Shown here: piece by piece, positions 9,164 through 28,047 of the stretch
Numbering within the stretch: position 1 is the first letter of the stretch
Layout: each line of letters opens with the position of its first letter
NCBI GenBank assembly: GCA_025839675.1
Contig: CP104013.1
Location: 2,220,001 to 2,252,000 of the forward strand
Length of the DNA: 32,000 nucleotides
Source: Candidatus Lokiarchaeum ossiferum
GTDB lineage: Archaea; Asgardarchaeota; Lokiarchaeia; Sigyniarchaeales; Promethearchaeaceae
Direction: 5' to 3'
The notes under the pieces: model-generated
Seen by the model: the letters and a program-made list of their open reading frames with translations, nothing else
Databases searched by the model: none
Told to the model about the DNA's origin: nothing
Position numbers and translations under genes: made by a program

Positions 9164-9190
9164 ATAATGGAGATACAATTTTTAAATTTT
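9164..9190 (-). promoter_or_regulatory. 27-bp promoter-like module, copy 1 (upstream of 8532..9152)
   Basis: Minus-strand reading is AAAATTTAAAAATTGTATCTCCATTAT. The A/T box lies about 30 nt before ATG 9152, consistent with an archaeal TATA box and a leaderless or short-leader mRNA. An exact duplicate sits at 9600..9626. Confidence 0.5.
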
Positions 9191-9211
9191 GCCTTGGTCT
9201 AATAAAAAAAG

Positions 9212-9597
9212 TTATTTCATAAGAAGGGCAGGAGTAATATCTTGCAAACTTCGTACCCCTGTCATCAACATTGCTTTTGCAAGATCCTTCTGGAGATATT
9301 CCATTTGTAATTGAACCCCTCTTGATCCACCTCCAATCGCAGCACGAACAACATCCCTTCCAATTAGCACGGCTTCCGCCCCTAAGGCGAGCATTTTCAA
9401 TACATCAAAACCTGTCCGGACGCCTCCATCCACCAAAATTTTGATTTTTCCATCAACGGCTTTAACAATTTCAGCTAAAACGGAGGCAGTACCAGGAGTG
9501 CAATCTAGTACTCTCCCTCCATGATTGGACACCATAATGGCCGAAGCTCCTGTCTTCACAGCCATTAAAGCATCTTCCACGGTCATAATCCCCTTGA
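9212..9597 (-). pseudogene. FMN-dependent alpha-hydroxy-acid dehydrogenase/oxidase (LldD/LOX family), C-terminal third only (fragment 1)
   Basis: The ORF 9212..9586 product VSNHGGRVLDCTPGTASVLAEIV...ILVDGGVRTGFDVLKMLALGAEAVLIGRDVV...GVQLQMEYLQKDL covers only the last ~125 residues of a ~350-aa TIM-barrel enzyme. Homology stops at ~9597, where the 27-bp module begins. Confidence 0.8.
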
Positions 9598-9599
9598 GT

Positions 9600-9626
9600 A
9601 TAATGGAGATACAATTTTTAAATTTT
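9600..9626 (-). promoter_or_regulatory. 27-bp promoter-like module, copy 2 (upstream of the truncated dehydrogenase ORF)
   Basis: Exact 27/27 match to 9164..9190. It lies 14 nt upstream of ATG 9586 of the fragment ORF. Confidence 0.5.
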
Positions 9627-9651
9627 AACTAAGTATTCCAAAAAAAAAAAG

Positions 9652-9860
9652 TCTAGAAATATCGTAGGAGAAATTAATTTCAAATTCCGCATCCCAGTCA
9701 TGAGCAAGGCTTTGCGAAGTTTTTTTGAAGATATTCCATCTTGAGTCGAACTCCAAGAGAACCCCATCCAATTGCAGCCCGAACAACATACATCCCAATT
9801 AACACATATTCAGCATCAATTACGAGTATTTTAAGCACATCAAACCATATACATAACGAG
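9652..9860 (-). pseudogene. FMN-dependent dehydrogenase 3' fragment 2 (degenerate)
   Basis: ORF 9698..9895 encodes FDVLKILVIDAEYVLIGMYVVRAAIGWGSLGVRLKMEYLQKNFAK, a decayed copy of fragment 1 (FDVLKMLALGAEAVLIGRDVVRAAIGGGSRGVQLQMEYLQKDLAK). DNA similarity continues past the stop into the A-rich flank. Confidence 0.75.
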
Positions 9861-9963
9861 TTTTGAAAGTTGAGATTGTTGAGAAAAAAACACAAAAAAT
9901 TTTGGAGAAAAAAAAACCCTTTTAAAAGAAAAGCATATTTACTAATTCATCCTAAATTACAAT

Positions 9964-11799
9964 ATGATTAAGATAAAAAGATCAAAAAAATATAACTCAT
10001 TTATTTTTCAATTTTCTCTTTTATCGATTATCTTTCTTTTTCTATTGCTTCATTTTAGGACCGAAATGGTAAATAACGCAGAAAATCCGCCGAAAAATCA
10101 CAATTCAGAAGATTTCCCCGCTCCTTCCAGTGATGATTCAACAGCGTTTCTCTCAGTGTGGAATTCTCAGAAATCAAGTTATGGATCAAGTGCTCAAAAT
10201 CAAATTCATCTCCCCTTAATCTCAAATGGTAACTATAATTTCTTAGTACAGTGGGGAGATGGGAAAAAGGATAACATTACATCCTATTCGGATAGCAATA
10301 TTACCCATACATATTCAAAACCAGGGATTTATAATGTGATTATCACTGGAAAATTGGTGGGATGGAGCTTCAATTTTACGGGTGATAAAGATAAGATAGT
10401 AGAAATATCACAATGGGGGACGTTGAATTTAGGAAATGAAGGAAGTAATTTCGCGGGTTGTACAAACTTAAATCTCACTGCTACCGATGCATTAAACTTA
10501 ACGGAGACAACAACATTATATCGTGCTTTTTATGGGTGCGATAATTTAGGTAATATGGGAAATATGAGCAAGTGGGATGTTTCGAGAGTATTAAACATGG
10601 GCTCTATGTTCCTCGGCGCAGATAGCTTCAATCAAGACATTTGCAATTGGAATGTCTCAAGTGTTCTAAATATGAATAGAATGTTTTGTTATTCATCTAT
10701 GTTCAATCAAGATATCGGAAATTGGAATGTCTCGAAAGTTACGGATATGAGAGATATGTTCTATAGGACGCTTGCCTTCAATCAAAATATTGGTATTTGG
10801 AATGTCTCGAAAGTTTTGAAAATGGATTTTATGTTTTGCGGCGTAGATACATTCAACCAAGACATCGGAAATTGGGATGTATCTAATGTTATTAATATGA
10901 AATATATGTTTAATGGCGCATCTCTCTTCAATCAAGACATTGGAAGATGGAATGTTTCCAATGTTGTCAATATGGAGCACATGTTTAGTGATACATCAGC
11001 CTTCAATCAAGATATTGGAAGATGGAATGTATCCAATGTTGTCAATATGGAGCATATGTTTAGTGATACATCAGCCTTCAATCAAGATATCGGAGGTTGG
11101 GATGTTTCGAGTACCGAAAATATGAATGGATTGTTTTATTATGCATCTGTTTTTAATCAAGATATCGGAGGTTGGGATGTTTCGAGTGCAACATCTATGG
11201 CATCAGTTTTCAAAGGATCATCTGTTTTCAACCAAAATATTGGAGAATGGAATGTCTCAAATGTCAAAGAAATGGGACATATGTTTAATGGCGCATCTGC
11301 TTTCAATCAAGACCTCGGAAATTGGGATACTTCGAGTGTCTTGAATATGGATTCGATTTTTTGTTATGCATCTGCCTTCAATCAAGATATCGGAAGATGG
11401 AATGTTTCAAGAGTTACAGATATGAGGTCAATGTTCTACCGAGCAACATCTTTCAACCAAGATATCGGAAGCTGGGATATCTCAAGAGTCACAAATATGG
11501 AAGATATGTTCTTTGGGATTAAATTATCTACAGAAAATTACGACTCCTTGTTAACTAGTTGGGCACAACTTTCATTACAACATGGAGTGAAATTTAATGC
11601 AGGAAACTCTCAATACAGCTCAGGAGAAGCGGCAATAAAACGAGATTATATTATAAATACTTTTGGATGGGAAATAATTGATAATGGAGAAATTGAGAAC
11701 AATCGCCATATTTTTGGTTTTTCTTTAGAAATTTTAATTGGTTGCATTGGGATCACATCCTTAGGGTTATTCAAAAAAAAAGATCGATTTAGATTCTAA
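9964..11799 (+). CDS. BspA-like / DUF285-type repeat surface protein (26-residue-repeat family)
   Basis: 611 aa. N-terminal signal/anchor (FIFQFSLLSIIFLFLLL). Domain WGDGKKDNITSYSDSNITHTYSKPGIYNVIITG. Then 12-13 repeats of ~25 aa with FNQDIGxWNVSxVxxMxxMF. C-terminal hydrophobic helix plus KKKDRFRF. Confidence 0.85.
   Translation: MIKIKRSKKYNSFIFQFSLLSIIFLFLLLHFRTEMVNNAENPPKNHNSEDFPAPSSDDSTAFLSVWNSQKSSYGSSAQNQIHLPLISNGNYNFLVQWGDGKKDNITSYSDSNITHTYSKPGIYNVIITGKLVGWSFNFTGDKDKIVEISQWGTLNLGNEGSNFAGCTNLNLTATDALNLTETTTLYRAFYGCDNLGNMGNMSKWDVSRVLNMGSMFLGADSFNQDICNWNVSSVLNMNRMFCYSSMFNQDIGNWNVSKVTDMRDMFYRTLAFNQNIGIWNVSKVLKMDFMFCGVDTFNQDIGNWDVSNVINMKYMFNGASLFNQDIGRWNVSNVVNMEHMFSDTSAFNQDIGRWNVSNVVNMEHMFSDTSAFNQDIGGWDVSSTENMNGLFYYASVFNQDIGGWDVSSATSMASVFKGSSVFNQNIGEWNVSNVKEMGHMFNGASAFNQDLGNWDTSSVLNMDSIFCYASAFNQDIGRWNVSRVTDMRSMFYRATSFNQDIGSWDISRVTNMEDMFFGIKLSTENYDSLLTSWAQLSLQHGVKFNAGNSQYSSGEAAIKRDYIINTFGWEIIDNGEIENNRHIFGFSLEILIGCIGITSLGLFKKKDRFRF
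10516..11520 (+). repeat. Coding tandem repeats, ~75-bp period, 12-13 units
   Basis: The FNQ(D/N)IG motif recurs every 24-25 codons. Units 10927..11001 and 11002..11076 differ at only 3 of 75 nt, and all three differences are synonymous. Confidence 0.9.
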
Positions 11800-11818
11800 A
11801 TAGGCTACTAAACAACAA

Positions 11819-11828
11819 TTTTTTTTTT
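11819..11828 (+). terminator. Oligo-T tract (T10) downstream of the BspA-like gene
   Basis: Ten consecutive T residues begin 20 nt after the stop codon. Archaeal RNA polymerase terminates at oligo-T tracts. Confidence 0.45.
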
Positions 11829-11859
11829 ACTTTACTCTTATTATGAACTTAATTAAAAA

Positions 11860-12005
11860 AAACATTAGATAAGAATCTCGGTTGAAATCTCTTTCAAATC
11901 CCAAACACTTGTCATTAGCATGGCTTTTGTGAGATTTTTCTGGAGATATTCCATCTGTAATTGAACTCCTTTAAATCCTCCTCAAATGGCAGCTCGAACA
12001 ATATT
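11860..12005 (-). pseudogene. FMN-dependent dehydrogenase 3' fragment 3 (with in-frame stop)
   Basis: Minus-strand translation IVRAAI*GGFKGVQLQMEYLQKNLTKAMLMTSVWDL aligns to fragment 1 (VVRAAIGGGSRGVQLQMEYLQKDLAKAMLMTGVRSL). The A-rich post-stop flank is also conserved. Confidence 0.75.
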
Positions 12006-12445
12006 TGAATAATCGATATGAATCAATAATTCTTCTCTTCTTTAAAAGAAAATATAATAAAAATTATTGAAATAAAACAAAATTGGCGAATAAAGCGGTT
12101 CAATGGGTCAAATCTCGTGCAGAATGAAAGATCATGGGAAAAAAATTAGTATTCCAATGACTTATTATAAAATCTATTTTGATCAATTGGGAGAACTGTG
12201 AATTTACTTCATTGTACTGATCTTAATCCAATTTGCCTATTTCATAATACTAAGTGTCAACTCCAGTCAAAAAATTGAGGATGATGCAGTAAATACGCAT
12301 TATTATCACCGCTAACAATTTTTTCGTTGATTTTTTTTTAAGATATGGATTATAACTCCAAAAATTTCTAACAATACTTTCTTTGAGTGAAAGATTCTAA
12401 TCTCATAGAGAATTAATTCCAATAATTGGAATTTAGGCGATCTCT

Positions 12446-13078
12446 TTGACTAAACTAATCATCATTCAACACTGTCAATCTGAACATCACATCAATAATA
12501 TGTCCGGAGGATGGACGGATACACCACTGACATCTTTGGGAAGAAAACAAGCAGATCTCATCGGAAAAAGACTCAGAGTAGATATTTTGAACGAAAAATA
12601 TGTACTGTATGCTTCGGATTTGAAACGAGCTTATCAGACTGCTGAAGTTATTGGAAAACACTTGAATTTAGAAATTAAGATAGATAAGGATCTTCGAGAA
12701 ATTAATACGGGCATTGCTGCAGGAAAAACGAAAGATTGGGCGAATGCCCATCGGAATCCTCGAACAGAAAAGGGATTCAATTTGGACTATCGAGAATTTC
12801 CACAAGGAGAAACATGGAAACAATTCTATTTTCGAGTGTGTGATTGTATGGAGCGGATTACTAAATCCGAAAATCACAACTATATCATAGTAACCCATGG
12901 ATGCACTTTAGCTTTTATTGTTGCTTGGTGGTTAAAATATGATGTCCAAATGTTGGTTTCGTCTTACTTCTCAGCTTCCCCAGCGAGTATTTCAATTCTA
13001 CAATATAAAGAGAATTATCAACAAAATGTTTTGAAATCATTCAATGACACCTCACATTTGAAAGATTTTGGCAAATAA
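12446..13078 (+). CDS. Histidine phosphatase superfamily (phosphoglycerate-mutase-like) protein
   Basis: 210 aa. LIIIQHCQSEHH...GWTDTPLTSLGRKQA, SDLKRAYQTAE, REINTG and IVTHGCTL match branch-1 histidine phosphatases. The RHG motif reads QHC (first Arg replaced). TTG start, with no nearby ATG. Confidence 0.7.
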   Translation: MTKLIIIQHCQSEHHINNMSGGWTDTPLTSLGRKQADLIGKRLRVDILNEKYVLYASDLKRAYQTAEVIGKHLNLEIKIDKDLREINTGIAAGKTKDWANAHRNPRTEKGFNLDYREFPQGETWKQFYFRVCDCMERITKSENHNYIIVTHGCTLAFIVAWWLKYDVQMLVSSYFSASPASISILQYKENYQQNVLKSFNDTSHLKDFGK

Positions 13079-13157
13079 ATAAAGATTTTTTAGAAAGTGA
13101 AGAATTTTTTTTTTGGTTTTATGGATTCAACGATAATCTAAAAAATAGAAAAGATCG

Positions 13158-13277
13158 TGGGAAAGGAGGGCTTCGAACCCTCGATATCTGGCTATCTCAG
13201 CGAATATGGGCAATGTGAATATGTGCGCCCATATCTCATATAAGACCAGCGCATTGACCAGGCTATGCTACTCTCCC
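13158..13277 (-). tRNA. tRNA-Ile (anticodon UAU) with 45-nt canonical intron
   Basis: Acceptor GGGAGAG/CTTTCCC. D arm GCAT-AGCCTGGTCA-ATGC. Anticodon stem CTGGT/GCCAG with loop CT-TAT-A. T arm GAGGG-TTCGAAG-CCCTC. Discriminator A, no encoded CCA. The intron 13194..13238 follows position 37 and folds as bulge-helix-bulge: a 4-bp helix (C32-G, U33-A, U34-G, A35-U) between two 3-nt bulges, plus an 8-bp hairpin ATATGGGC/GCCCATAT. Confidence 0.85.
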
Positions 13278-13384: not shown

Positions 13385-13600
13385 AAAGTGGAAAGGGTTT
13401 CCAAATAAAAATGGAACAAAAAAGAATTAAATTTTCTTCTAAAAAAGAAATTATTTTTCATGATTAGAAAGAATAGTAAAATCAATACCATTTCATAAAA
13501 GATCGATTAATAGGCTTGTAAAAGAATTTAAACCCCGCACAATCCCACCTAAGAAACATATTCCTAGATTTTCCTTTGAGATTTGTAGTTAATCTCGATT
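13385..13600 (-). pseudogene. Decayed duplicate of the 3' end (last ~70 codons plus 3' flank) of the MFS transporter gene at 15089..16405
   Basis: Blocks ttcctttgagatt (13571-13583 vs 15287-15299) and aaaccccgcacaatcccacctaa (13530-13552 vs aaacccgccacacaattccacctaa at 15197-15220), plus aligned flanks. It is frameshifted and carries an internal deletion. Listed ORF 13300..13491 lies inside this decayed region. Confidence 0.7.
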
Positions 13601-13624
13601 CGTGAAATTAATATTTTTTCAAGT

Positions 13625-14086
13625 TTAAGAATCATTTGAAGAACTCTCATGTTCTTCTTTTACTAAATTCGACAGTACTTGTAAGGTCATTTTCTCAAAT
13701 AATTTCCTTTGATCTGGTGCAAAATCCTTAAAGTAAACCGTTATCATTTCTTCGAGCACATTTTTATAAGTTAAGAAATATTGATCAAATAAGGAAGTTT
13801 TCACGATGTGAACTTTCCGTCGATCTTCGGTATTTCTAACTCTTGAAATAATTCCTTTTTTTTCTAATGAATCCAGAAGTTGACTCAATGTTGAATTGCT
13901 TAAAGAAGCCAGTTGAGATAGTTTATGAACCGTTATTTTCTCATGGGATTCAAGCAAAAATAGAACCCTTCCTTGAGAAGCACTCAATTTTTGAAGGGAA
14001 GCCTCCCGTAATTTGCGTTCAAATACTCTATCTGATGTTTGATGAATTTGTGCGATTAACAATCCAATTGATGAAAAGTCTCTCAT
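13625..14086 (-). CDS. MarR family transcriptional regulator
   Basis: 153 aa. Winged-helix region LSASQGRVLFLLESHEKITVHKLSQLASLSNSTLSQLLDSLEKKGIISRVRNTEDRRKVHIVKT. Confidence 0.88.
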   Translation of the reverse strand: MRDFSSIGLLIAQIHQTSDRVFERKLREASLQKLSASQGRVLFLLESHEKITVHKLSQLASLSNSTLSQLLDSLEKKGIISRVRNTEDRRKVHIVKTSLFDQYFLTYKNVLEEMITVYFKDFAPDQRKLFEKMTLQVLSNLVKEEHESSSNDS

Positions 14087-14116
14087 TACACAAAGTAGTT
14101 TTTTTTCTCATATAAT

Positions 14117-14161
14117 ACTTCGGACAAGAATAATTCGGAAAGGAATATTTCGGAAACGAAT
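14117..14161. promoter_or_regulatory. Three tandem 15-bp direct repeats (candidate MarR operator) in a divergent promoter region
   Basis: ACTTCGGACAAGAAT / AATTCGGAAAGGAAT / ATTTCGGAAACGAAT. The period is exactly 15 bp and 12 of 15 positions are invariant. The repeats lie between A/T-rich TATA-like boxes for the MarR gene (around 14108-14116) and the NmrA-like gene (around 14166-14180). Confidence 0.55.
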
Positions 14162-14196
14162 TAATTTATATTTTAAAAAACCTTATTCAGAGTATT

Positions 14197-15054
14197 ATGG
14201 TAAAAATTTTAGTAACGGGAGTTCTCGGAAATGTTGGTCGAGAAGTGTTCAAATATCTACAACAATATTCTGATCCTAACACAGAAATCATCGTAGCAGA
14301 TTATGATGAGAAAAAGGTACGTAGTGAGTTTGGTAAGGAGATCAATTTTCGAAAACTAGATTATTATGATCCCAGTTCCTTTCTTACTTGTACTCAAGGA
14401 ATTACAAAACTATTTCTCATGCGACCCCCTGCAATTGCAAATATTCGCAAATTGATGGCTCCATTCATCAAACATGCAAAAAATGCGGGAGTTAAGCATG
14501 TAGTATTTCTCTCAATTATCGGTGTAAACCCGCTGGTACCACACTGGCATGTTGAAAAATATATAAAGCGATACAAAATTCCCTTCACAATGTTACGTTG
14601 TGGCTTTTTTATGCAAAATTTGAATACAACTCATCAACTTGTCATTCAAAAGGAACATGATCTGTTAATACCGGCAGGAAACGGAAAGACTGCATTTATT
14701 GATGCGAGAGATATCGGAGAAACAGCCGCGATAGTTCTAACTAAGGACAAATATATCGCTCAGACTCCAAACTTAACAGGATCTGTTGCACTTGATTATT
14801 ATGAAGTTGCAAAGAAGATGACTAATATACTTGGATTTCCAATAAAGTATTCAGAACCATCTCCCAAAGTATTCAATAAAAAAATGCTTACATATGGATT
14901 TGATCAAAAATTTATCAGGATTGTGAAACTTCTTTATTGGAATGTAAGAGCAGGGCATGCGAAGGATGTATATATAGATTTAGCTCAAATATTGAATCGC
15001 AATCCACGCACAATGGACGATTATATTAATGAATATCGCAACTACTGGATATGA
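14197..15054 (+). CDS. NmrA-like / atypical SDR NAD(P)H-binding oxidoreductase
   Basis: 285 aa. N-terminal Rossmann motif KILVTGVLGNVGREV and overall NmrA-like length and layout. Divergent from the MarR gene. Confidence 0.75.
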   Translation: MVKILVTGVLGNVGREVFKYLQQYSDPNTEIIVADYDEKKVRSEFGKEINFRKLDYYDPSSFLTCTQGITKLFLMRPPAIANIRKLMAPFIKHAKNAGVKHVVFLSIIGVNPLVPHWHVEKYIKRYKIPFTMLRCGFFMQNLNTTHQLVIQKEHDLLIPAGNGKTAFIDARDIGETAAIVLTKDKYIAQTPNLTGSVALDYYEVAKKMTNILGFPIKYSEPSPKVFNKKMLTYGFDQKFIRIVKLLYWNVRAGHAKDVYIDLAQILNRNPRTMDDYINEYRNYWI

Positions 15055-15088
15055 AGAAAGTAGAAAGGCAAAAAAAAAAGATTAGAGT

Positions 15089-16405
15089 TTATTTCTCTTC
15101 CAAGAAGGGAGTTGTTTTTTTAATAGCAAGGAAGAAGAGCGGAATCAAGGCCACTTCAACAACGATCGAGATAATAAACGGCATTTTAATACCATAAACC
15201 CGCCACACAATTCCACCTAAAATCGGTCCCAAAGCAGCGCCAATATTCGCAAAGAATAGGCGACTTCCAAAGAGTTTTCCCCGATGTTCCTTTGAGATTC
15301 GAGAGACGAACTTATCCAAGATCAAACTTTGACTAATCGCAACGGCGGTATCAAAAATGAGCAAGAAGGAGAAGAGGATCATATTTTGGACATTTATCAA
15401 AAACAAGGTGAGAAGAGCCCCGAGCAAAGCAGCAGCAATCAAACCCCAATAAATATTGATTCGTTCCACAAGAGAACCCAATTTAGGGGCGAGTAACATA
15501 GGAAGAATACTGGAGGGCATGAATATAAGAATAATGAGGGTTGGATCATCCGTGACGGTTCGCATAATGAATGTCTGCAAAAAGGGTTTACTAATTTCCG
15601 AATTGATACTCCCAATAAAATACGAAAGCATGATAAAAATTAACCCAATCAACAACATCTTTGGAATGGGAGATTTCCCTTTTATAGTTTCTTTTTCTGT
15701 AGTATTAATTAATATAGGATTACTATCGACTTCCGCAGAATGGAGAGTTAAATCCTCATCAACAGCCCTAAGAAATAGGTATCCGGCATAAAAATTCGCC
15801 CCAGCAAATAATATGATCGAACTATAGAGCAGATAGATAGGAAACTGAAATCGTTGCCCTACAATGAACAATCCAAAACCAATAATCCCCCCAACTAAAC
15901 CTCCTTTTCCAACGGCGGAAGCTCGCTGAGAATAGGCAAAACTCCGGTGATCATGATGAGATTTTTGCGCAATCAATTGATTAAAGGGAATCCAAAAGAA
16001 ACTTACAACAAAACCTAAAATTATACACGAAAGGACAAATAAAACATAAGATCGCAATAAGATCGCCAAATACATAACAAAATACGAAAGCCCTCTTCCA
16101 AAAACGCCAAAAGATCCAAGAACTTTCTTAGATATTTTATCTGCCAAGAAACCGACTATGGGAGCAGAAATAATGTTGCCCATAGTAATGAAAGAATAAA
16201 TTAGACCTAGCTGAACATCCTGCACCCCAATCATTTCAGCAAATTGAGGAATAACAAAACCTAGAAAATAAAACCCAGTGGTGCTCCAGAAAATAGATTT
16301 CACCATAGGTTGAAAATCGGAAGTAAATAAATCCGAATCTTGAAGAAGCTCAGAAGCAGGTCTTCGCTTCGGATTTTTCGCTTTTTTTACGAGTATTTCC
16401 GCCAC
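15089..16405 (-). CDS. MFS transporter
   Basis: 438 aa with about 12 hydrophobic segments. MFS-like loop motifs (GFLADKISKK, SRISKEHRGKLFG). GTG start at 16405; an internal ATG start is possible. Confidence 0.85.
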   Translation of the reverse strand: MAEILVKKAKNPKRRPASELLQDSDLFTSDFQPMVKSIFWSTTGFYFLGFVIPQFAEMIGVQDVQLGLIYSFITMGNIISAPIVGFLADKISKKVLGSFGVFGRGLSYFVMYLAILLRSYVLFVLSCIILGFVVSFFWIPFNQLIAQKSHHDHRSFAYSQRASAVGKGGLVGGIIGFGLFIVGQRFQFPIYLLYSSIILFAGANFYAGYLFLRAVDEDLTLHSAEVDSNPILINTTEKETIKGKSPIPKMLLIGLIFIMLSYFIGSINSEISKPFLQTFIMRTVTDDPTLIILIFMPSSILPMLLAPKLGSLVERINIYWGLIAAALLGALLTLFLINVQNMILFSFLLIFDTAVAISQSLILDKFVSRISKEHRGKLFGSRLFFANIGAALGPILGGIVWRVYGIKMPFIISIVVEVALIPLFFLAIKKTTPFLEEK

Positions 16406-16625
16406 AATACAAATAGTTGATCATTGCTAAAAAATATTTAGAAATTACATATTTGGAAATACATTCGTATTCGATGATATATTTCAAATATTTATGAACC
16501 AAAAATGCTCATTTCTGACAAAGATTTTATGCTATAGCTGGGTTAAAAGAAAAAATATTTATGAGCAAAAACCAAATATAAAAGTAGTTATAAAAAAAAG
16601 AAATTCTCATGTAGAATGCTTTGGA

Positions 16626-17246: not shown

Positions 17247-17269
17247 ATACATTAAAAGGAGAATAAAAA

Positions 17270-19773: not shown

Positions 19774-19814
19774 AACCTTTTTTTTCCTAAAAATACAAGA
19801 ATGAGGGATAATTT

Positions 19815-20969: not shown

Positions 20970-20988
20970 TTTTCACTTTATTTTATAA

Positions 20989-21534: not shown

Positions 21535-21586
21535 GAACCGTTTTTATTTTCTGTCCAAATTCTTTAAAGGTTTTTTTGCTTATCAC

Positions 21587-22663: not shown

Positions 22664-22871
22664 CGAACTAAAAATATTTGAAAAAATTTCATAATTGGTC
22701 CAAGAGATTTTTTTTCTTTATATACATTCATTGAGAACTATTTGAACTTTTTGACCGATACAATCTTTTTTAGGAAAAAACGCCATTAAGTAATATATTA
22801 ACAAGGATTTCATCTATGAATTTGGATGATCTTACTCCCGTGAAGTGAAATCCCGAAATCTGTGAAAAATT

Positions 22872-23921
22872 ATGGCAAGATGTCCAAGCTGTGGTCATGA
22901 ATCTGACCTTGATACCTATATCTGTGATAACTGCGAATATAAACTCAAAGAAGAACGCATTGAGGCAATTCCGATTTTTACTCGACCAAATATCAGATTA
23001 TATAAGCCCGATAACAGATTTAAGCGCATTTATAAAGTAATCAATCCAATAAAAACCCCCATTGCTTTCCGTGACATTAATAAAAAGAAAGATGGAGGAG
23101 GACCTCGATTTATTACGTGGTTCAATGGTTTTCTCATTGGATTATGTGCGCTTGCAGTAAGTTGGCACTTAGATATTCAACTTTATCAAGGTGTAGAATT
23201 AACTCCGATGTCCATCTCATTCAGCCCATTTGCAATCACATGGGGGTATAAATGGGTTGCATTCTTAAATAGTTTTATTATCTTCCTATGTTTCTTCATT
23301 TTCGGAATTATTTATTATGTCATTATTTTCAAACTGTATAATTTTGCCTTTGGACTGGCAGCCAATTTTTCAGTCCAGCTGGATGGGTTACTGGCCATTC
23401 GGTATAACGTCAAATTGAAAAAGAGCAAACTTAATGACATGATCTCAGGAAAGAGCCGTTTGGAGAAAAAATCAGGAATCGAGGGCGAAACATCCTTCCA
23501 AACATCTCAGAAGAAAGATTTTATGACAAAACTATCCCAAACAGGCAAAAATAAAATTATGACTTACGCCTACGCCCCATTAATAATAATTAACTTCATA
23601 TCATTTTTACTAATTGCAATCGCGCTCCCTACCACAACTCTCGCAAACACGAGTGGAGTTACCTTCTCGAGTATTAGTAATACGATGAGTGATATCTGGT
23701 CATCTAAACTCTGGATGGTCTTAGATGGACTGCAATTATTAGGAATCATCTGGGTTGCGTGTACGATGAGTGTTGCACAACGAGAAATTGGCAATACCAG
23801 CACCACCCGTCTCTTAATAGGAAATATGATTATGGCGCTTATAATCGGATTTACCACAATCATGCTACGTCCTACTTTCGGGGCCAATAATTGGAATATT
23901 ATTGAATCTTTTACTAGTTGA
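22872..23921 (+). CDS. Zinc-ribbon N-terminus plus polytopic membrane protein (possibly Yip1-like)
   Basis: 349 aa. CPSCGHESDLDTYICDNCEY (CxxC-x12-CxxC) is followed by about 6 hydrophobic helices and a charged loop (KLKKSKLNDMISGKSRLEKKSG...). The Yip1 idea rests only on the overall layout and the NPIKTPIAF segment. Confidence 0.5.
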   Translation: MARCPSCGHESDLDTYICDNCEYKLKEERIEAIPIFTRPNIRLYKPDNRFKRIYKVINPIKTPIAFRDINKKKDGGGPRFITWFNGFLIGLCALAVSWHLDIQLYQGVELTPMSISFSPFAITWGYKWVAFLNSFIIFLCFFIFGIIYYVIIFKLYNFAFGLAANFSVQLDGLLAIRYNVKLKKSKLNDMISGKSRLEKKSGIEGETSFQTSQKKDFMTKLSQTGKNKIMTYAYAPLIIINFISFLLIAIALPTTTLANTSGVTFSSISNTMSDIWSSKLWMVLDGLQLLGIIWVACTMSVAQREIGNTSTTRLLIGNMIMALIIGFTTIMLRPTFGANNWNIIESFTS

Positions 23922-23976
23922 TCACATATCATCCACATAATATCCCTTTTTTTCTTCTTTTCACCCTTTATTCTTA

Positions 23977-24657
23977 TTGGTTCCTATGAATTTTTCGCCT
24001 GAATCTCCTCAACCCAAATCAATTATTACATCTCCTCAAAAGAGAACCGTAGTGGATATTAAGGCGGATTTATATTCCATTTTTCAAACAGCTGCTTTTC
24101 TAAAAGATCGTTTTGAATCGGGAATGGTGGATGCTCTATTTTATTATCGTCGTTTGAAACACTCCCATTCTGAATTAGTAGGACTTCAAAATGAACTCTC
24201 TCTCTGGAACCGTTCTTTATTGGAGATCATTGATGATTTCAAAATTGATCAAAATTTCACTTCCATTCTTTCAGTAATATCTTCGATTCAAGATTTTAAA
24301 TTCAATGAAATTGCTCAAACATGGCAACTTGATCCTTATTTATTGGCTTCAGTGGCAACGGAATGTACATCCAATTTCATTACTATTATTGATTATTTGC
24401 ATTTAATTGAAGCCTTTGAGGAAGAATTTTTCCAGCAATTGATGGGGGATCTCGAAAAAAGCTTAAGTCAAATTAATACTTTTCAGCCCTTTTTAATCCA
24501 AATTGCCCAATTAAATCAAAATCTCCCACTTTATCTCCAACAATCAGGACTTTACCAAGCTACAGACCCAACCCACATTAAAGCAATTCTCCAAAAAATC
24601 GAACAAAGTATCTATACTCTCTTTCAAGAATTTAAACAATATTTGCACATTCAATGA
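23977..24657 (+). CDS. Vps28-like protein (ESCRT-I subunit homolog)
   Basis: 226 aa, about the length of eukaryotic Vps28. The N-terminal part ADLYSIFQTAAFLKDRFESGMVDALFYYRRL aligns with human [31 protein letters not shown]. The C-terminal part SNFITIIDYLHLIEAFEEEFFQQLMGDLEKSL...THIKAILQKIEQSIYTLFQEFKQYL aligns with SLFITVMDKLRLEIRAMDEIQPDLRELMETM...SQVRQMLFDLESAYNAFNRFL. TTG 23977 or ATG 23986. Confidence 0.65.
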   Translation: MVPMNFSPESPQPKSIITSPQKRTVVDIKADLYSIFQTAAFLKDRFESGMVDALFYYRRLKHSHSELVGLQNELSLWNRSLLEIIDDFKIDQNFTSILSVISSIQDFKFNEIAQTWQLDPYLLASVATECTSNFITIIDYLHLIEAFEEEFFQQLMGDLEKSLSQINTFQPFLIQIAQLNQNLPLYLQQSGLYQATDPTHIKAILQKIEQSIYTLFQEFKQYLHIQ

Positions 24658-24819
24658 AAATCCTTTCCTTCTTTTCAAAATATTTTTTTGCTATTTTGAC
24701 CTATTTCATTCAAGAATCTTCTTTTTAAGCCAACGTGGAGTTTTCCCTATTAAATGTTTAGTTTTCTTCCCCCGAAGCGAAAATTTAATATTTTATGCTA
24801 ATTTCTCTTCCATATTATA

Positions 24820-24837
24820 ATTGCAAAATTTTGCAAT
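24820..24837. promoter_or_regulatory. Perfect 18-bp palindrome ATTGCAAAATTTTGCAAT in the eL34 leader
   Basis: The sequence is its own reverse complement. It lies 3 nt upstream of the SD-like AAGGTG (24841-24846) and 17 nt upstream of ATG 24854. Confidence 0.35.
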
Positions 24838-24853
24838 GTTAAGGTGTTAAATA

Positions 24854-25126
24854 ATGCGAGGAAATCGAAGATCCCATGCTATGCGACGCTTGATGCGACG
24901 CTTGCCAGGTAATACTACCACCACCCATTTTGTACGAAGAAGACCAAAATACGCTCACTGTCCAATAACGGGTCAAGTACTCCACGGAGTTCCCCGATTA
25001 CGACCTGCTCAAGTTCGAAAATTAACCAAAACCGAACGAAGACCAAGTCGGCCATATGGTGGAAAAATCTCCCACACTGCTTTAGCAAATGCAATTCGGG
25101 CTAAAGTTTTAGAAGATCGCAATTAA
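24854..25126 (+). CDS. rpl34e: 50S ribosomal protein eL34
   Basis: 90 aa, very basic. HCPITGQVLHGVPRLRP...RPSRPYGG matches the eL34 pattern. Confidence 0.9.
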   Translation: MRGNRRSHAMRRLMRRLPGNTTTTHFVRRRPKYAHCPITGQVLHGVPRLRPAQVRKLTKTERRPSRPYGGKISHTALANAIRAKVLEDRN

Positions 25127-25177
25127 AATCAGCGATTACAGAATTAAGTTCTCTTTTTTTTCATCCTTCTTACTTAA

Positions 25178-25789
25178 CTACGAAAAATTTTGCTTTAGAA
25201 AATCAGCAAGGTTTTGAAAATCTTTAAACAAATGAGATTTTAAACCTATTCGACTGGCGGCCGCACTATGAGTGTGAGAATCATCTATATACACAGCTTC
25301 TGAGGGTTTTATACCCAATGTTTTCAAGGCAAAGTGAAAAATTCCAGGATTAGGTTTTATCAAACCAATGCTGGATGAATTGATAATATAATCAAAAGTA
25401 TTAGAAATCGAGAGAGTCGAAAGATCTTCAGTTAGTTTATTGGTTGCATTGGTTAATAATGCCAAAGTTGCACCTTTATTACGGTATGAAGTATACAAAT
25501 CCAATATTTCATAATTAATTATACCTGGAAATGAAGACCAATCCCTTATTAATTTCATACTATCTTGGGCAGGTAAAAATTCCTGAATCCGAGAGGTAAT
25601 ATTTCTTCTCCACTCACTATCTGAGATTTCTCCCACCATCGCTTGATTCAAATCAGGATACCCAAAGGTAGTGTGCAAAAGAGTTCCTTGGGGAAGACCA
25701 TAACGCGTTTCAAACCCGGAATTCCTCTGGGCAGGAAAAAATCTAAGCACCCCATCTAAATCGGTAATAATTGCCTTCATGAAGATCAA
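25178..25789 (-). CDS. HAD superfamily hydrolase (subfamily IA-like)
   Basis: 203 aa. Motif I IITDLDGVL, motif II LLTNATN, motif III KPNPGIF, motif IV VYIDDS. Alternative start ATG 25780. Confidence 0.85.
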   Translation of the reverse strand: MIFMKAIITDLDGVLRFFPAQRNSGFETRYGLPQGTLLHTTFGYPDLNQAMVGEISDSEWRRNITSRIQEFLPAQDSMKLIRDWSSFPGIINYEILDLYTSYRNKGATLALLTNATNKLTEDLSTLSISNTFDYIINSSSIGLIKPNPGIFHFALKTLGIKPSEAVYIDDSHTHSAAASRIGLKSHLFKDFQNLADFLKQNFS

Positions 25790-25831
25790 AATGTTAAAAA
25801 GTTAATATTGTATCCTAAATTGAATTAAAAT

Positions 25832-26383
25832 ATGAATTTTTCCTTTGCGGGATTACATGGAACCGGAAAAAGCACAATTGCGAAAAAAGTTGCGGACCAT
25901 CTAAACTATACTTTTTATTCCACCGGCATGGCTTTTCGAGAGTTAGCCAAAGAAAAAAACATGTCTTTAGAAGATTTCTCTCTATACGCTGAAGATCATT
26001 TTGAAATTGATAAAGAATTAGATGGAAAAATCCTAAAATTAGCCCAAACGGGTGAAAATTATGTATTTGAAGGACAACTTCCAACATATATGTTAGGAGA
26101 ACTCAAAGATTTTGCGATCTTATTAGTATGTGATGAAAAAGTACGTATTGAACGGATGATGGACCGTGATGTCCGTACTTTTGAAGCTCAACGGCACGAG
26201 ACACTAGTACGGGAAGAAAGTGAACGCCAACGGTTCATTGACATTTACCAAATCGATGTTTTAGATCCTGCCACCATGCACAACACTTTCGATTTAATCA
26301 TTAATACGACACATTTGGGGATAAATGCAATCTTCAACATCTGTATTACAGCGCTCACGGAATTTATTCATGGTCAGCGTTAA
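25832..26383 (+). CDS. cmk: Cytidylate kinase, archaeal type
   Basis: 183 aa. P-loop GLHGTGKST, FRELAKEKNMSLEDFS, EIDKELD. It occupies the conserved archaeal position between the eL34 and eL14 genes. Confidence 0.85.
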   Translation: MNFSFAGLHGTGKSTIAKKVADHLNYTFYSTGMAFRELAKEKNMSLEDFSLYAEDHFEIDKELDGKILKLAQTGENYVFEGQLPTYMLGELKDFAILLVCDEKVRIERMMDRDVRTFEAQRHETLVREESERQRFIDIYQIDVLDPATMHNTFDLIINTTHLGINAIFNICITALTEFIHGQR

Positions 26384-26563
26384 GAAAAAAAACGAAAAAT
26401 CAAAAATTTTTTAATTTTTGCTGTATTGATCAAAATATTCTCAGCGGTTTTGTTTTTACAAAATGCTTAGAAACATTAAGATATCACCTTGGTTGAAATC
26501 TGAACTGCGGTGAGATCTTGTGTAAACTCCGTTTATGGTGACATAAATGAGGTGTTTCATACC

Positions 26564-26833
26564 ATGCCAGTATTCGAAGTAGGTCGTGTTGCATATAAAA
26601 CTCTCGGAAGAGAGGCAGGTCTTGCCTGCGTAATTGTAGAAGTAATCGACAAATCATATGTGTTAGTCGATGGAATCAAAGTTCGACGACGACGTGCCAA
26701 TGTTCGTCATCTTGCTCCAACCCCTGAAAAAATTGACATCAAAAAAGGTGCAAAAACCGCCGCTGTCAAAAAAGCAGTAATTGCTGCTAAAATGGAAGAG
26801 AAATTTTCCAATCGAATGAAATTAGATTTGTAA
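26564..26833 (+). CDS. rpl14e: 50S ribosomal protein eL14
   Basis: The ORF is listed from GTG 26510, but homology starts at MPVFEVGRVAYKTLGREAGLACVIVEVIDKSYVLVDG...RRRRANVRHLAPT (ATG 26564). SD-like GAGGTG sits at 26547-26552. Confidence 0.88.
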   Translation: MPVFEVGRVAYKTLGREAGLACVIVEVIDKSYVLVDGIKVRRRRANVRHLAPTPEKIDIKKGAKTAAVKKAVIAAKMEEKFSNRMKLDL

Positions 26834-26864
26834 GCTTCATTCTCTTTTACTTTTTTCCTCCCAA

Positions 26865-26949
26865 GCACTCGTCGCCTAGTCGTATGACGCTGGACTGGAA
26901 ATCCAGTGCGGTCCTCCGCCCGTGGGTTCAAATCCCATCGAGTGCGCCA
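26865..26949 (+). tRNA. tRNA-Ser (anticodon GGA), CCA encoded
   Basis: Acceptor GCACTCG/CGAGTGC. Anticodon arm CTGGA-CTGGAAA-TCCAG. Long variable arm GCGG-TCCT-CCGC. T arm GTGGG-TTCAAAT-CCCAT. Discriminator G followed by CCA. The D arm is atypical (GCC...GAC with a C-A mismatch and no GG in the loop). Confidence 0.75.
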
Positions 26950-26956
26950 TCATTTT
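26935..26956 (+). repeat. 22-bp direct repeat, copy 1 (tRNA-Ser 3' end; att-like)
   Basis: ccatcgagtgcgccatcatttt covers the T-stem 3' strand, the acceptor 3' strand, CCA and 7 nt of flank. It is identical to 28026..28047. Confidence 0.85.
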
Positions 26957-27093
26957 CCTGCATTCTAAATGCGATTTGAAATTAATTTTTAATCAAATCA
27001 ATTATGACTCTTTTGATTACATGATTATATCTTACAAATGTTATGATTTTCAATCCAAGATTAATTTCAGGCATTTTAAAAGAATAAAAAAAA

Positions 27094-27876
27094 TTATAAT
27101 GAAATCCAGGTACTTGCATCTTTAATTATGTTTGGATTTTGGTCTGAATCTGTTTGGAAAATCTCAATTGAAGTGAATATTCCGTTCTTATCAGAACTAA
27201 ATTCAATCTTAGCAACATTCTCATCAATGAAGTAGACCATATTTTCAAGAAGAAGATCATCAATTGTTAAGTTTGCAGAATTATTAAAGTATCCAACAAA
27301 AAAACCATGGACTATTTCGTTTGTTTGATTGATAGGAATAGTATAATTTGGATTACTTGAAGCAAAATCAGTATGCCATATGGAAGGAAACAATGAAATG
27401 TCGACGATTCCATCCTTAATATGAATATAATTGTCGGAAAAGTTATAATTACGAGTAGTAGTTCCTGAACTAACTCCACCGGATTGCATTGAACTCATTA
27501 AAGAGCAAGTATATATAATAGAATCATTTGAAAGTACAATTTTTCTGTAAAATAATTTTGCTATAGTATTGAATTGATTACTATAATTTCTAGTATTTTG
27601 ATTATATCTATGGGAAAAAGTAAGATCTTGTTCAGAAGAATTCCAATAAATTTCACTTGATGTATTAAAAAAAAACATCTCCCCAGGAGATTGTATTTCA
27701 TCTTCAGAATTAATATCATCCTTAATATGAAGATTATTTCCAAAATAAATTATAGAAAATGTGCTTAAATTAGTAATGATTAACATAAGACCAATGCATA
27801 AAATTGATTTCCTGGTAGTTAAGAAATACCACTCAAATTTATTGTTTTTTTGAACCATAATAAAGATTAGATTCAC
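27094..27876 (-). CDS. Hypothetical membrane-anchored, Asn-rich extracellular protein
   Basis: 260 aa. N-terminal TM (ILCIGLMLIITNLSTFSIIYF). Many N-x-S/T sequons (NTS, NSS, NYS, NDS, NFS, NQT, NNS, NLT). I recognise no family. The start may be ATG 27858 (MVQKNN). Confidence 0.55.
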   Translation of the reverse strand: MNLIFIMVQKNNKFEWYFLTTRKSILCIGLMLIITNLSTFSIIYFGNNLHIKDDINSEDEIQSPGEMFFFNTSSEIYWNSSEQDLTFSHRYNQNTRNYSNQFNTIAKLFYRKIVLSNDSIIYTCSLMSSMQSGGVSSGTTTRNYNFSDNYIHIKDGIVDISLFPSIWHTDFASSNPNYTIPINQTNEIVHGFFVGYFNNSANLTIDDLLLENMVYFIDENVAKIEFSSDKNGIFTSIEIFQTDSDQNPNIIKDASTWISL

Positions 27877-28025
27877 TTTTTATTTAAGTTCAATTGTCAA
27901 TTAACTTCAAAATAACCAAGTGATCTTTAGAATTTTGTATGCACTTGTTTAACTCGTTTTTGAACTTCCTATATAAGGAGTGCATGAATCCTAGAGAGTG
28001 CACATACGTAAGAATCGACTACACT

Positions 28026-28047
28026 CCATCGAGTGCGCCATCATTTT
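28026..28047 (+). repeat. 22-bp direct repeat, copy 2 (orphan tRNA-Ser 3' end; att-like)
   Basis: Exact 22/22 match to 26935..26956. There is no intact tRNA body in front of it. Confidence 0.85.

What the first reader, a model, noticed from the sequence alone, without database searches (positions are those of the whole stretch)
9164..28047. Recurrent pattern: cargo genes flanked by same-orientation duplicates of a host gene's 3' end, three times in 19 kb, with no recombinase
Three independent loci show the same geometry. The FMN-dehydrogenase 3' fragments surround the BspA-like gene. The MFS 3' end is duplicated around MarR+NmrA. The tRNA-Ser 3' end is duplicated around a secreted-protein gene. 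In each case the insert is small (1-2 kb, one or two genes). The displaced copy is decaying, and in the two protein-gene cases the duplicated stretch includes the stop codon and 3' flank. I see no integrase, transposase or terminal inverted repeats in the window. This density suggests an active cassette-type insertion process acting in trans and targeting gene 3' ends (protein-coding genes as well as tRNA genes). The alternative is repeated decay of larger integrated elements down to their cargo. Either would matter for how this lineage acquires accessory and bacterial-type genes.
Basis: inference. Interest (0 to 1): 0.7.

Follow-up and report, generated by a model that had tools for sequence, protein, structure and literature searches.

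The report
Recombination scars beside swapped accessory genes
In a cultured Asgard archaeon (Lokiarchaeum ossiferum B35), three small gene inserts are flanked by leftover copies of a neighbouring gene's tail; comparison with sister strain B36 suggests these are scars of ordinary recombination and an old tRNA attachment site, not a new gene-insertion machine.

Summary
The repeats are real. There are three direct copies of an FMN-dehydrogenase 3' end, a decayed MFS 3' end after MarR+NmrA, and a 22-nt exact tRNA-Ser 3' repeat. All beat chance, and no recombinase lies within about 42 kb.

The window is Ca. Lokiarchaeum ossiferum B35. Sister strain B36 (about 97% identical) changes the reading:
- **FMN-dehydrogenase.** B36 has an intact 352-aa gene and no DUF285/BspA gene there. 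Copy A in B35 is the recently truncated resident gene. It is joined to foreign DNA (C, DUF285, B) at a 4-nt microhomology.
- **MFS.** The MFS fragments of B35 and B36 differ in sequence, start point and junction.
- **tRNA-Ser.** Both strains carry a tRNA-Ser repeat with homologous arms but unrelated cargo.
- **Turnover.** Six segments were replaced in about 30 kb. Strain identity is mosaic (74-100%). The most divergent patches are the 3' ends of MFS and TatD, next to the variable cargo.
- **Junctions.** The loci share no junction motif, and fragment start points all differ.

Best reading: homologous exchange of diverged alleles swaps 1-2-gene cargo, and out-of-register illegitimate joints leave 3' fragments. 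The tRNA-Ser repeat is probably an old att remnant. A dedicated trans-acting cassette system is not supported, though not excluded.

The parts
9164..9599 (-). FMN_dh copy A: the resident gene's 3' end (codon 223 to stop) plus a 48-nt 3' flank. An intact 124-aa ORF lies at 9212-9586. A 27-nt TATA-like element lies at 9164-9190.
   Evidence: Pfam FMN_dh E 3e-44. It is 96.9% identical to the B36 locus, where the gene is a full 352 aa. It differs from the B36 protein at 4 of 124 residues.
9600..9852 (-). FMN_dh copy B: a decayed 3' fragment (about codons 286-351) plus flank. Its first 27 nt (9600-9626) are identical to 9164-9190. The B|A joint lies at 9599/9600.
   Evidence: The joint shows TTAT microhomology when compared with B36.
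9964..11799 (+). Cargo 1: a DUF285/BspA-like surface protein gene (611 aa) with about 13 internal 75-nt repeats. It is absent from this locus in B36.
   Evidence: Pfam DUF285 E 7e-176. Repeat family D1. Strain comparison.
11807..12035 (-). FMN_dh copy C: a decayed 3' fragment (about codons 299-351, with an in-frame stop) plus flank. It ends about 8 nt from the DUF285 stop codon.
12036..13095 (+). Remainder of the putatively imported B35-specific segment: 375 nt of non-coding DNA, then the His_Phos gene (12446-13078). The His_Phos block (12411-13095) is only 87% identical to B36.
13157..13277 (-). tRNA-Ile(UAU) with a 45-nt intron. It is a conserved anchor between variable segments.
   Evidence: Rfam tRNA 50.7 bits. 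ARAGORN run with introns allowed. The 200-nt identity window starting at 13141, which contains it, is 99% identical to B36.
13420..13600 (-). Decayed MFS 3'-end fragment with a 48-nt internal deletion. It lies directly after the MarR stop codon.
   Evidence: Shuffle test 410 vs 261+-19, 0 of 1000. Alignments.
13625..15054 (.). Cargo 2: MarR (13625-14086, - strand) and an NmrA-like reductase (14197-15054, + strand). Both are present in B35 and B36.
   Evidence: Pfam. Strain comparison.
15075..16405 (-). Intact MFS transporter gene (15089-16405). Its last ~250 nt plus flank (15075-15325) is the duplicated stretch. Its last ~450 nt are the most divergent patch between the strains (14-20%).
   Evidence: MFS borders the conserved block in a 72%-identical relative that has a different downstream gene.
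26865..27001 (+). tRNA-Ser(GGA) (26865-26949) and repeat copy 1 (26935-27001). The exact 22-nt core is 26935-26956.
   Evidence: The L14e-tRNA-Ser adjacency is conserved in MK-D1 and another Lokiarchaeon.
27094..27876 (-). Cargo 3: a 260-aa ORF with an N-terminal hydrophobic segment, 27.5% GC, and no Pfam or PHROG match. In B36 an unrelated 70-aa ORF takes its place.
28005..28092 (+). Conserved right arm (28005-28025) and repeat copy 2 (28026-28092, with the exact core at 28026-28047).
28049..31020 (-). A further B35-specific segment: 780 nt of AT-rich non-coding DNA, a zinc-ADH gene (28828-29781) and a TetR gene (29793-30467). Next to it, the last ~335 nt of TatD are 14-36% divergent from B36. 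No duplicate was left here.

Best explanation
The three loci are scars of ordinary gene turnover at the edges of a hypervariable stretch of the Lokiarchaeum ossiferum B35 chromosome. They are not products of a dedicated cassette-insertion system.

What the two-strain comparison shows directly:
- One- and two-gene segments are swapped between diverged lineages.
- Strain identity is a mosaic, and the 3' ends of the genes bordering the cargo (MFS, TatD) are the most divergent patches.
- Where the joint is in register, the bordering gene simply gets a new 3' end and nothing is duplicated (TatD next to ADH+TetR).
- Where one joint is illegitimate and out of register, a same-orientation fragment of the bordering gene is left beside the cargo. 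Examples are the B|A joint at TTAT and the B36 MarR|MFS joint beside TTCTT.

What is inferred:
- The swaps occur by homologous recombination with crossovers inside the conserved genes that border the cargo. The out-of-register joints work like homology-facilitated illegitimate recombination or unequal exchange.
- In B35, a ~3.5-kb segment (His_Phos allele, non-coding DNA, C, DUF285, B) probably came from a lineage about 13% diverged. It replaced a 255-aa gene plus the first 222 codons of FMN_dh, which leaves copy A as a fresh truncation.
- Fragments are 3' ends because variable DNA is tolerated mainly where gene 3' ends face it.
- The tRNA-Ser repeat is the exception. Its exact 22-nt core, and arms conserved in both strains around unrelated cargo, fit best an old tRNA-targeted site-specific integration whose integrase is lost or lies elsewhere.
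For: - Source and sister strain identified.
- B36 has an intact FMN_dh (352 aa) beside ATC_hydrolase and no DUF285, B or C.
- B35 9604-12410 (2807 nt) replaces 1620 nt of B36, with a TTAT microhomology at the B|A joint.
- The adjoining His_Phos allele is 87% identical, against about 96.7% in the main shared blocks.
- The MFS fragments of B35 and B36 are only 75.6% alike, start at different positions and have different MarR junctions. In B36 the MarR C-terminus is encoded by the fragment, beside a shared TTCTT.
- The FKBP single-gene indel is bounded by a 9-nt direct repeat.
- There are six replaced segments in about 30 kb.
- Identity is mosaic: 100% over 21230-23430, but 14-20% divergence in the last ~450 nt of MFS and 14-36% in the last ~335 nt of TatD, with sharp edges at the cargo.
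- No displaced TatD fragment was found.
- No shared junction motif, no terminal inverted repeats, and no recombinase in 42 kb of B35 or 30 kb of B36.
- tRNA-Ser: exact 22-nt core, and a B36 repeat with 1 mismatch, homologous arms and unrelated interior.
- HFIR joints use 3-10-bp microhomologies (PMC6382021).
Against: - No donor lineage was found. The nearest relatives apart from B36 are at most 73% identical in protein, so the import is inferred rather than seen.
- The 27-nt perfect identity between the flanks of A and B, beside 70% identity elsewhere, is not predicted by a simple single illegitimate joint. It needs promoter constraint, conversion or a two-step history.
- All four fragments are 3' ends. 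Three of the duplicated stretches are of similar size (~200-250 nt), which a random-offset model does not predict.
- The tRNA-Ser duplicate also extends ~45 nt into the flank, like the protein-gene cases. That hints at one common process rather than two.
- How DNA moves between Lokiarchaeum cells is unknown.
- Only about 42 kb of a 6-Mb genome was examined.
Confidence: 0.55

Rival explanations
1. All three loci are remnants of conventional integrase-bearing integrative elements. These would have targeted the 3' ends of FMN_dh, MFS and tRNA-Ser, carried a surrogate 3' end as phage 21/e14 does at icd, and then decayed down to their cargo.
For: - The geometry matches: intact gene or copy, cargo, then a displaced same-orientation 3' fragment that includes the stop codon and flank.
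- tRNA-Ser has an exact 22-nt core, and the arms are conserved in both strains.
- The 3' ends of MFS and TatD are unusually divergent between strains, as surrogate ends would be.
- The tRNA-Ser insert has 27% GC against 36% for the core.
- Partial tRNAs and degenerate remnants are known to mark old integrations, for example in tycheposons.
Against: - No integrase or integrase fragment lies within 42 kb of B35 or 30 kb of B36.
- There is no identical core at the MFS or B/C duplicates (13 nt at most).
- Fragment start points differ between copies and between strains.
- The datable joints are microhomology joints that removed resident DNA, which site-specific integration does not do.
- TatD received a new 3' end with no displaced copy left behind.
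- The inserts are trimmed almost exactly to gene boundaries, with no junk DNA.
- The att and arm patterns are absent from IMG/VR.
Confidence: 0.22
2. An active process acting in trans inserts 1-2-gene cassettes at gene 3' ends. The process could be a recombinase encoded elsewhere. Alternatively, cassettes could loop out by recombination between their direct repeats and re-enter another genome by single-crossover (Campbell-type) recombination, using the captured 3' end as a homology arm.
For: - Four of four fragments are 3' ends plus flank.
- The inserts are tightly trimmed to one or two genes with their promoters.
- The same sites carry different cargo or different fragments in two strains only 3% apart.
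- The tRNA-Ser arms are conserved around unrelated interiors, which looks like cassette exchange.
- Small circularizable integrated elements of 1.3-2.6 kb exist in other Asgard archaea (PMC11529989).
Against: - There is no common junction motif or core.
- Start points vary.
- The present duplicates are 70-77% identical, too diverged to recombine.
- The B|A event deleted 1.6 kb of resident DNA, which a Campbell insertion would not do.
- There is no evidence of circular forms or of the same cassette at a second site. The DUF285 homologue search found nothing above 56% identity.
Confidence: 0.08
3. The pattern has a purely local origin. Old tandem duplications of gene 3' ends arose by slippage or unequal sister exchange, and unrelated genes were inserted between the copies later. 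No horizontal import is involved.
For: - A and B are head-to-tail with a 436-nt period and share a 27-nt identical flank. This is the signature of a tandem-duplication joint.
- Short direct repeats bound other indels.
Against: - A and B are 30% diverged, while the strains differ by 3% and B36 lacks B and C entirely.
- The adjoining His_Phos allele is 13% diverged, which indicates imported DNA.
- The B35 and B36 MFS fragments are not orthologous.
Confidence: 0.08

Closest known systems
Homology-facilitated illegitimate recombination (HFIR) and unequal homologous exchange. HFIR was described for natural transformation in Acinetobacter, S. pneumoniae and P. stutzeri, and is summarised in PMC6382021.
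   Same: - One side of the new DNA is bounded by homologous sequence, though more diverged than its surroundings.
- The other side is a joint at a 4-5-nt microhomology.
- Resident DNA is deleted and foreign DNA is gained.
- No element-encoded recombinase is involved.
   Different: - HFIR has been shown experimentally only in naturally transformable bacteria. No DNA-uptake or cell-fusion route is known for Lokiarchaeum.
- The donor was not found.
- HFIR does not explain the 27-nt perfect patch at the B|A joint.
Integrative genetic elements that target the 3' end of a tRNA or protein gene and carry a surrogate 3' end. Examples are phage 21/e14 at icd (from my own knowledge) and tycheposons with partial-tRNA arrays and degenerate remnants (bioRxiv 10.1101/2020.12.28.424599).
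   Same: - Direct repeats of a gene's 3' end bracket the cargo.
- The tRNA-Ser case has an exact 22-nt core that overlaps the tRNA 3' end.
- The cargo consists of accessory genes.
   Different: - There is no integrase in cis, nor any remnant of one.
- The protein-gene duplicates have no exact core and variable start points.
- The inserts are only 1.1-1.9 kb.
Integrase-less att-flanked elements: CIMEs of streptococci (from my own knowledge), and archaeal 'gene capture' after SSV-type integrases split their own gene on integration (PMC7253208).
   Same: - Cargo is bounded by attL- and attR-like repeats with no recombination genes.
- Two strains show different cargo between conserved arms at the same tRNA site.
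   Different: - No split integrase halves lie next to the repeats.
- No helper element has been identified.
- Mobilisation has not been shown.
Integron gene cassettes
   Same: The units are single-gene or two-gene accessory units inserted one at a time.
   Different: - There is no IntI or attI.
- There are no attC-type imperfect inverted repeats at the cassette ends.
- The cassettes here carry their own promoters and sit at three different genes.

Membership tests
Site-specific integrative element (tyrosine/serine integrase) or its remnant | A recombinase gene, or recognisable fragments of one, inside or beside the repeat-bounded segment. | tested here: not met
   No integrase or transposase Pfam family appears on any called gene from 0.8 kb left of the window to 9.5 kb right of it, or in 30 kb of B36. 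PHROGs gave nothing specific. The non-coding stretches were translated in six frames but were not scanned against integrase profiles.
Site-specific integrative element (tyrosine/serine integrase) or its remnant | An identical core sequence at both ends, one copy overlapping the 3' end of the target gene. | tested here: inconclusive
   Met at tRNA-Ser: 22 nt exact, with 0 of 100 shuffles reaching it for the 15-mer. Not met at MFS (longest exact match 13 nt) or B/C (13 nt). A/B share 27 nt, but in the 3' flank at the far end of the duplicate.
Site-specific integrative element (tyrosine/serine integrase) or its remnant | The same crossover position in independent events. | tested here: not met
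   FMN_dh fragments start at codons 223, 286 and 299. MFS fragments start near 15325 in B35 and near 15268 in B36. The tRNA-Ser repeat is at the same position in both strains, but this may be a single ancestral event.
Site-specific integrative element (tyrosine/serine integrase) or its remnant | An empty site in a relative, with a precise junction at the core. | tested here: not met
   B36 has no clean empty site at any of the three loci. It lacks DUF285 but through a 1.6-kb vs 2.8-kb replacement. It carries MarR+NmrA, and its tRNA-Ser site is occupied by other cargo.
HFIR / illegitimate-recombination scar | A short (3-10 bp) microhomology at one joint, with loss of resident DNA. | tested here: met
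   The B|A joint shows TTAT, with 1620 nt of B36-type DNA replaced by 2807 nt. The B36 MarR|MFS-fragment joint lies beside a shared TTCTT. The FKBP indel is bounded by the 9-nt repeat AATCATTCT.
HFIR / illegitimate-recombination scar | A homologous anchor on the other side, with the imported tract more diverged than its surroundings. | tested here: met
   The His_Phos block is 87% identical, against about 96.7% in the main shared blocks, and it abuts the conserved tRNA-Ile. Divergent 3' patches are also seen in MFS and TatD.
HFIR / illegitimate-recombination scar | An identifiable donor sequence. | tested here: not met
   No lineage carrying the C-DUF285-B arrangement or the B35 His_Phos allele was found. 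The collections seem to hold no close Lokiarchaeum relative other than B36.
Integron cassette array | IntI, attI and attC sites (imperfect inverted repeats) at the cassette boundaries. | tested here: not met
   There is no integrase. Inverted repeats near the junctions are only A/T-rich, low-identity matches. Rfam finds only the two tRNAs.
Transposon / insertion sequence | A transposase, terminal inverted repeats and a short fixed-length target duplication. | tested here: not met
   None is present. The duplicates are 67-436 nt long and of variable length.
Integrase-less att-flanked element mobilised in trans (CIME-like) | Excision or mobilisation by a helper-encoded recombinase. | not testable with these tools
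   This needs read-level evidence of circular forms or whole-genome recombinase catalogues. Only +-10-kb windows of the genomes could be fetched.

The most novel reading that the evidence does not exclude
Lokiarchaeum moves 1-2-gene cassettes without an element-encoded recombinase. A cassette bracketed by direct repeats of a host gene's 3' end plus flank loops out as a small circle. It can then re-enter another genome by host homologous recombination, with the captured 3' end acting as a portable homology arm. Alternatively, a recombinase encoded elsewhere does the same at tRNA and protein-gene 3' ends alike. The shared '3' end plus flank' shape at all three loci, the tRNA included, would then reflect one process that feeds accessory and bacterial-type genes into Asgard genomes.
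Probability: 0.1. Interest if true: 0.7.

Novelty: new member of a known kind. Interest (0 to 1): 0.35.

Why it matters
Asgard archaea have large genomes rich in acquired genes, and how those genes get in is poorly known. Comparing two cultured strains that differ by 3% gives base-pair views of gene gain and loss here. It shows single-gene swaps, mosaic homologous exchange and microhomology joints. This argues that ordinary recombination between diverged lineages can drive accessory-gene flux in this lineage, without element-encoded recombinases. It also warns that 3'-end duplicates without an integrase should not be read as a new insertion system until a sister genome has been checked.

Tried and rejected
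- **Short FMN_dh proteins.** The top 120 homologues of the 124-aa FMN_dh fragment are all under 220 aa, which suggested a family of short proteins. Two contexts showed that these are contig-end partials or fragmentary assemblies, so the idea was dropped.
- **tRNA-Ile 3' or 5' repeats.** I looked for repeats that would make the MarR-NmrA region a tRNA-Ile island. None was found in B35 or B36.
- **Distant Lokiarchaeia from GTDB** (MK-D1, Harpocratesius and others). Only the core block 16494-26833 and the L14e-tRNA-Ser adjacency are syntenic. These genomes are too distant for junction analysis.
- **DUF285 homologue search.** The results are swamped by repeat proteins, with no orthologue above 56% identity.
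- **Metagenome scan with the His_Phos allele.** It returned only relatives at 56-65% identity with no synteny.
- **IMG/VR scans** for the att core, the arm-plus-core pattern, the tRNA 3' half and the 260-aa cargo. All were empty.
- **Search for remnants.** I looked for a displaced TatD 3' fragment, for remnants of the B36 255-aa gene or FMN_dh 5' part in B35 non-coding DNA, and for similarity between the strain-specific non-coding stretches. None was significant.
- **Possible second copy of the B36 tRNA-Ser insert upstream of MFS.** It was not significant.
- **Gap-permissive alignment survey.** The first attempt was invalid because scores grew linearly in AT-rich DNA. I redid it with stricter gap costs.
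- **Genome-wide survey.** This was not possible.


Full report
**What the window is.** It comes from Candidatus Lokiarchaeum ossiferum. The 124-aa FMN_dh fragment and the MFS protein match, at 100%, proteins of a 6,035,313-bp genome of that name. A preprint identifies that strain as B35, and identifies a second cultured strain, B36 (CP163304.1, 6.27 Mb, ANI 97.2%). Genes 16494-26833, followed by tRNA-Ser, form a block that is syntenic across Lokiarchaeia including MK-D1. The DNA to the left of 16494 and to the right of tRNA-Ser is not syntenic.

**Check of the observation.** All three sets of repeats exist and exceed chance.
- FMN_dh has three direct copies on the - strand. A is 9164-9599 and holds an intact 124-aa ORF matching the last third of Pfam FMN_dh (E 3e-44). 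B is 9600-~9852 and C is ~11807-12035. Identities are 70-75% with E values of 1e-11 to 5e-23.
- B and C bracket a DUF285/BspA gene (9964-11799). A lies head-to-tail with B. A and B share a 27-nt identical stretch of 3' flank.
- BLAST missed the MFS copy. It is nonetheless clear in alignment and scores 410 against 261+-19 for 1000 dinucleotide shuffles. It lies at ~13420-13600, directly after MarR.
- The last 15 nt of tRNA-Ser(GGA) plus 7 nt of flank recur exactly 1.09 kb downstream. The next 45 nt are also similar (27/45 against a null of 13.7+-3.2).
- A sensitive search of all intergenic DNA against all genes, over 41 kb, found only these 3'-end fragments.
- No recombinase gene and no terminal inverted repeats are present.
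- Independent Logan assemblies reproduce the structure.

There are two corrections. This genome has no intact FMN_dh. Loci 1 and 2 are 1.4 kb apart and separated only by His_Phos and an intron-containing tRNA-Ile(UAU), which default ARAGORN missed.

**The sister strain.** I fetched 30 kb of B36 covering window 6263-36931 (L016 and L024). The main shared blocks are about 96.7% identical; three smaller blocks are 82-89%. Six segments are replaced or are indels:
- R1: 9604-12410 (2807 nt) against 1620 nt in B36.
- R2: 45 nt against 1169 nt. B36 has an Arf-family GTPase gene after tRNA-Ile.
- R3: 13436-13636 (201 nt) against 1442 nt.
- R4: the interior of the tRNA-Ser insert.
- R5: 28049-30669 (ADH+TetR) against 277 nt.
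- R6: a FKBP gene present only in B36.

**Locus 1.** B36 has a full 352-aa FMN_dh next to ATC_hydrolase, preceded by a 255-aa gene. It has no DUF285 gene and no B or C copy.
- Copy A differs from the B36 protein at only 4 of 124 residues. The homology stops at codon 223. At that point B35 reads ...CTCCATTAT|ACTCAAGG and B36 reads ...CCTGTTAT|ACTCAAGG, a joint with 4-nt microhomology.
- A is therefore the resident gene, freshly truncated. It is not a decaying displaced copy.
- The neighbouring His_Phos allele is only 87% identical between strains.
- I infer that the segment from near tRNA-Ile to 9604 (His_Phos, 375 nt of non-coding DNA, C, DUF285, B) was imported from a lineage about 13% diverged. 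The import would be anchored homologously on one side and joined illegitimately inside FMN_dh on the other.
- The C-DUF285-B arrangement is older, and its origin cannot be resolved. A, B and C are roughly equidistant.
- One detail stays unexplained. The 27 nt next to the joint are identical in the flanks of A and B, and differ by one base from B36. This element looks like a TATA box placed about 27 nt before the start codons of both ATC_hydrolase and the truncated ORF.

**Locus 2.** Both strains have MFS-NmrA-MarR followed by an MFS 3' fragment, but the fragments are not orthologous.
- They are 75.6% alike, while the flanking DNA is 94-97% alike.
- They start at different positions and have different joints to MarR.
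- In B36 the last residues of MarR are encoded by the fragment itself, beside a shared TTCTT. The B36 fragment is followed by two extra genes.
- The last ~450 nt of the intact MFS gene form the most divergent patch in the block (14-20% against about 4% in NmrA). The patch has a sharp edge at the MFS/NmrA boundary.
- In a relative with 72% MFS identity, MFS again borders the conserved block but is followed by a different gene.

**Locus 3.** B36 also has a tRNA-Ser 3' repeat (CCCATCTAGTGCGCCAT, one mismatch) about 710 nt downstream of the tRNA.
- The roughly 40 nt on the left and roughly 45 nt on the right of the insert are homologous between strains (about 75-82%).
- The interiors are unrelated. 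B35 has a 260-aa ORF at 27.5% GC, and B36 has a 70-aa ORF.
- The exact core and conserved arms resemble a site-specific att remnant.
- The weaker similarity running 45 nt into the flank resembles the protein-gene duplicates instead.

**A clean counterpart.** Next to the ADH+TetR indel, the last ~335 nt of TatD are 14-36% divergent between strains, and the divergence drops abruptly to about 1-2%. No displaced TatD fragment exists. Here the cargo changed together with the bordering gene's 3' end by in-register exchange. Elsewhere the strains are identical for 2.2 kb at a stretch (21230-23430). The FKBP indel is bounded by a 9-nt direct repeat.

**Mechanism.** The evidence fits recombination between diverged lineages.
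- Crossovers inside the conserved bordering genes exchange 1-2-gene cargo.
- When one joint is illegitimate and out of register, a same-orientation piece of the bordering gene remains.
- This explains the variable fragment start points, the lack of a common core or junction motif, the loss of resident DNA at R1, and the divergent 3' patches.
- It works like homology-facilitated illegitimate recombination, whose joints use 3-10-bp microhomologies (PMC6382021).
- I infer that fragments are 3' ends because variable DNA is tolerated where gene 3' ends face it.
- I treat the tRNA-Ser repeat as a probable old integrase-made att remnant. Partial tRNAs and degenerate remnants of this kind are known from tycheposon islands. 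Archaeal integrases that disable themselves on integration are also known (PMC7253208).

**Rivals.**
- Decayed integrase-borne elements carrying surrogate 3' ends would give the same geometry and the same divergent 3' ends. They do not explain the variable start points, the microhomology joints with deletion, or the absence of any integrase remnant.
Four of four fragments are 3' ends plus flank, and the same sites carry different cargo in strains only 3% apart. However, I found no shared motif, no circular form and no second site.

**Limits.**
- Only about 42 kb of B35 and 30 kb of B36 could be examined.
- No donor lineage was found.
- Viral-contig scans were empty.
- How DNA passes between Lokiarchaeum cells is unknown.

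**Verdict.**
- The pattern is a new instance of known kinds of scar in an organism of high interest.
- It does not establish a new insertion system.
- Interest is 0.35.

Noticed in passing
window 13157-13277 (- strand): A tRNA-Ile with anticodon UAU and a 45-nt intron in the anticodon loop. Default ARAGORN missed it. Rfam and ARAGORN with introns allowed both find it. The 200-nt identity window that contains it is 99% identical to B36. Most archaea read AUA with a modified CAU tRNA, so a UAU tRNA-Ile is worth a note.
   Followed up: partly
window 9164-9190 and 9600-9626: A 27-nt identical TATA-like element (AAAATTTAAAAATTGTATCTCCATTAT on the - strand) sits about 27 nt upstream of the ATG of ATC_hydrolase, and also about 27 nt upstream of the ATG of the truncated 124-aa FMN_dh ORF. 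The fragment may therefore be transcribed as a leaderless mRNA. B36 has one copy, with one mismatch.
   Followed up: partly
window 13637-36931 compared with L016/L024: Identity between strains B35 and B36 is strongly mosaic. There is no mismatch over 21230-23430, most other shared stretches are 92-98% identical, and some patches are 74-90% identical. This suggests frequent homologous exchange among Lokiarchaeum lineages in the same sediment.
   Followed up: partly
L016 14779-15411 (B36); the corresponding site in the window is 13096-13140: B36 carries an Arf/Ras-family small GTPase gene directly downstream of tRNA-Ile. B35 lacks it, and no tRNA repeat bounds the insert.
   Followed up: no
L024 16598-17476 (B36); the corresponding site lies about 2.1 kb beyond the window's right end: A single FKBP-type gene is present only in B36. 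In B36 it is bounded by the 9-nt direct repeat AATCATTCT, which occurs once in B35. This is either a clean microhomology deletion or an insertion.
   Followed up: partly
L016 12314-12793 (B36 MarR): In B36 the MarR ORF runs into the MFS 3' fragment. Its last nine residues (VDIGSAFGN) are translated from MFS-derived sequence.
   Followed up: partly
window 28049-28827: A 780-nt stretch at 26% GC has no ORF of 60 aa or more and lies between the tRNA-Ser repeat and the ADH gene. It is absent from B36 and shows no detectable similarity to neighbouring genes. It may be a fully decayed gene or element.
   Followed up: partly
window 10544-11518: The DUF285/BspA gene contains about 13 tandem 75-nt (25-aa) repeats at 61-77% identity. 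The Logan assembly of the same sample breaks inside them.
   Followed up: no
one search hit list: All 120 best database matches to the FMN_dh C-terminal fragment are under 220 aa. The two that were inspected are a contig-end partial and a fragmentary assembly. This looks like a search or ranking bias rather than biology.
   Followed up: partly
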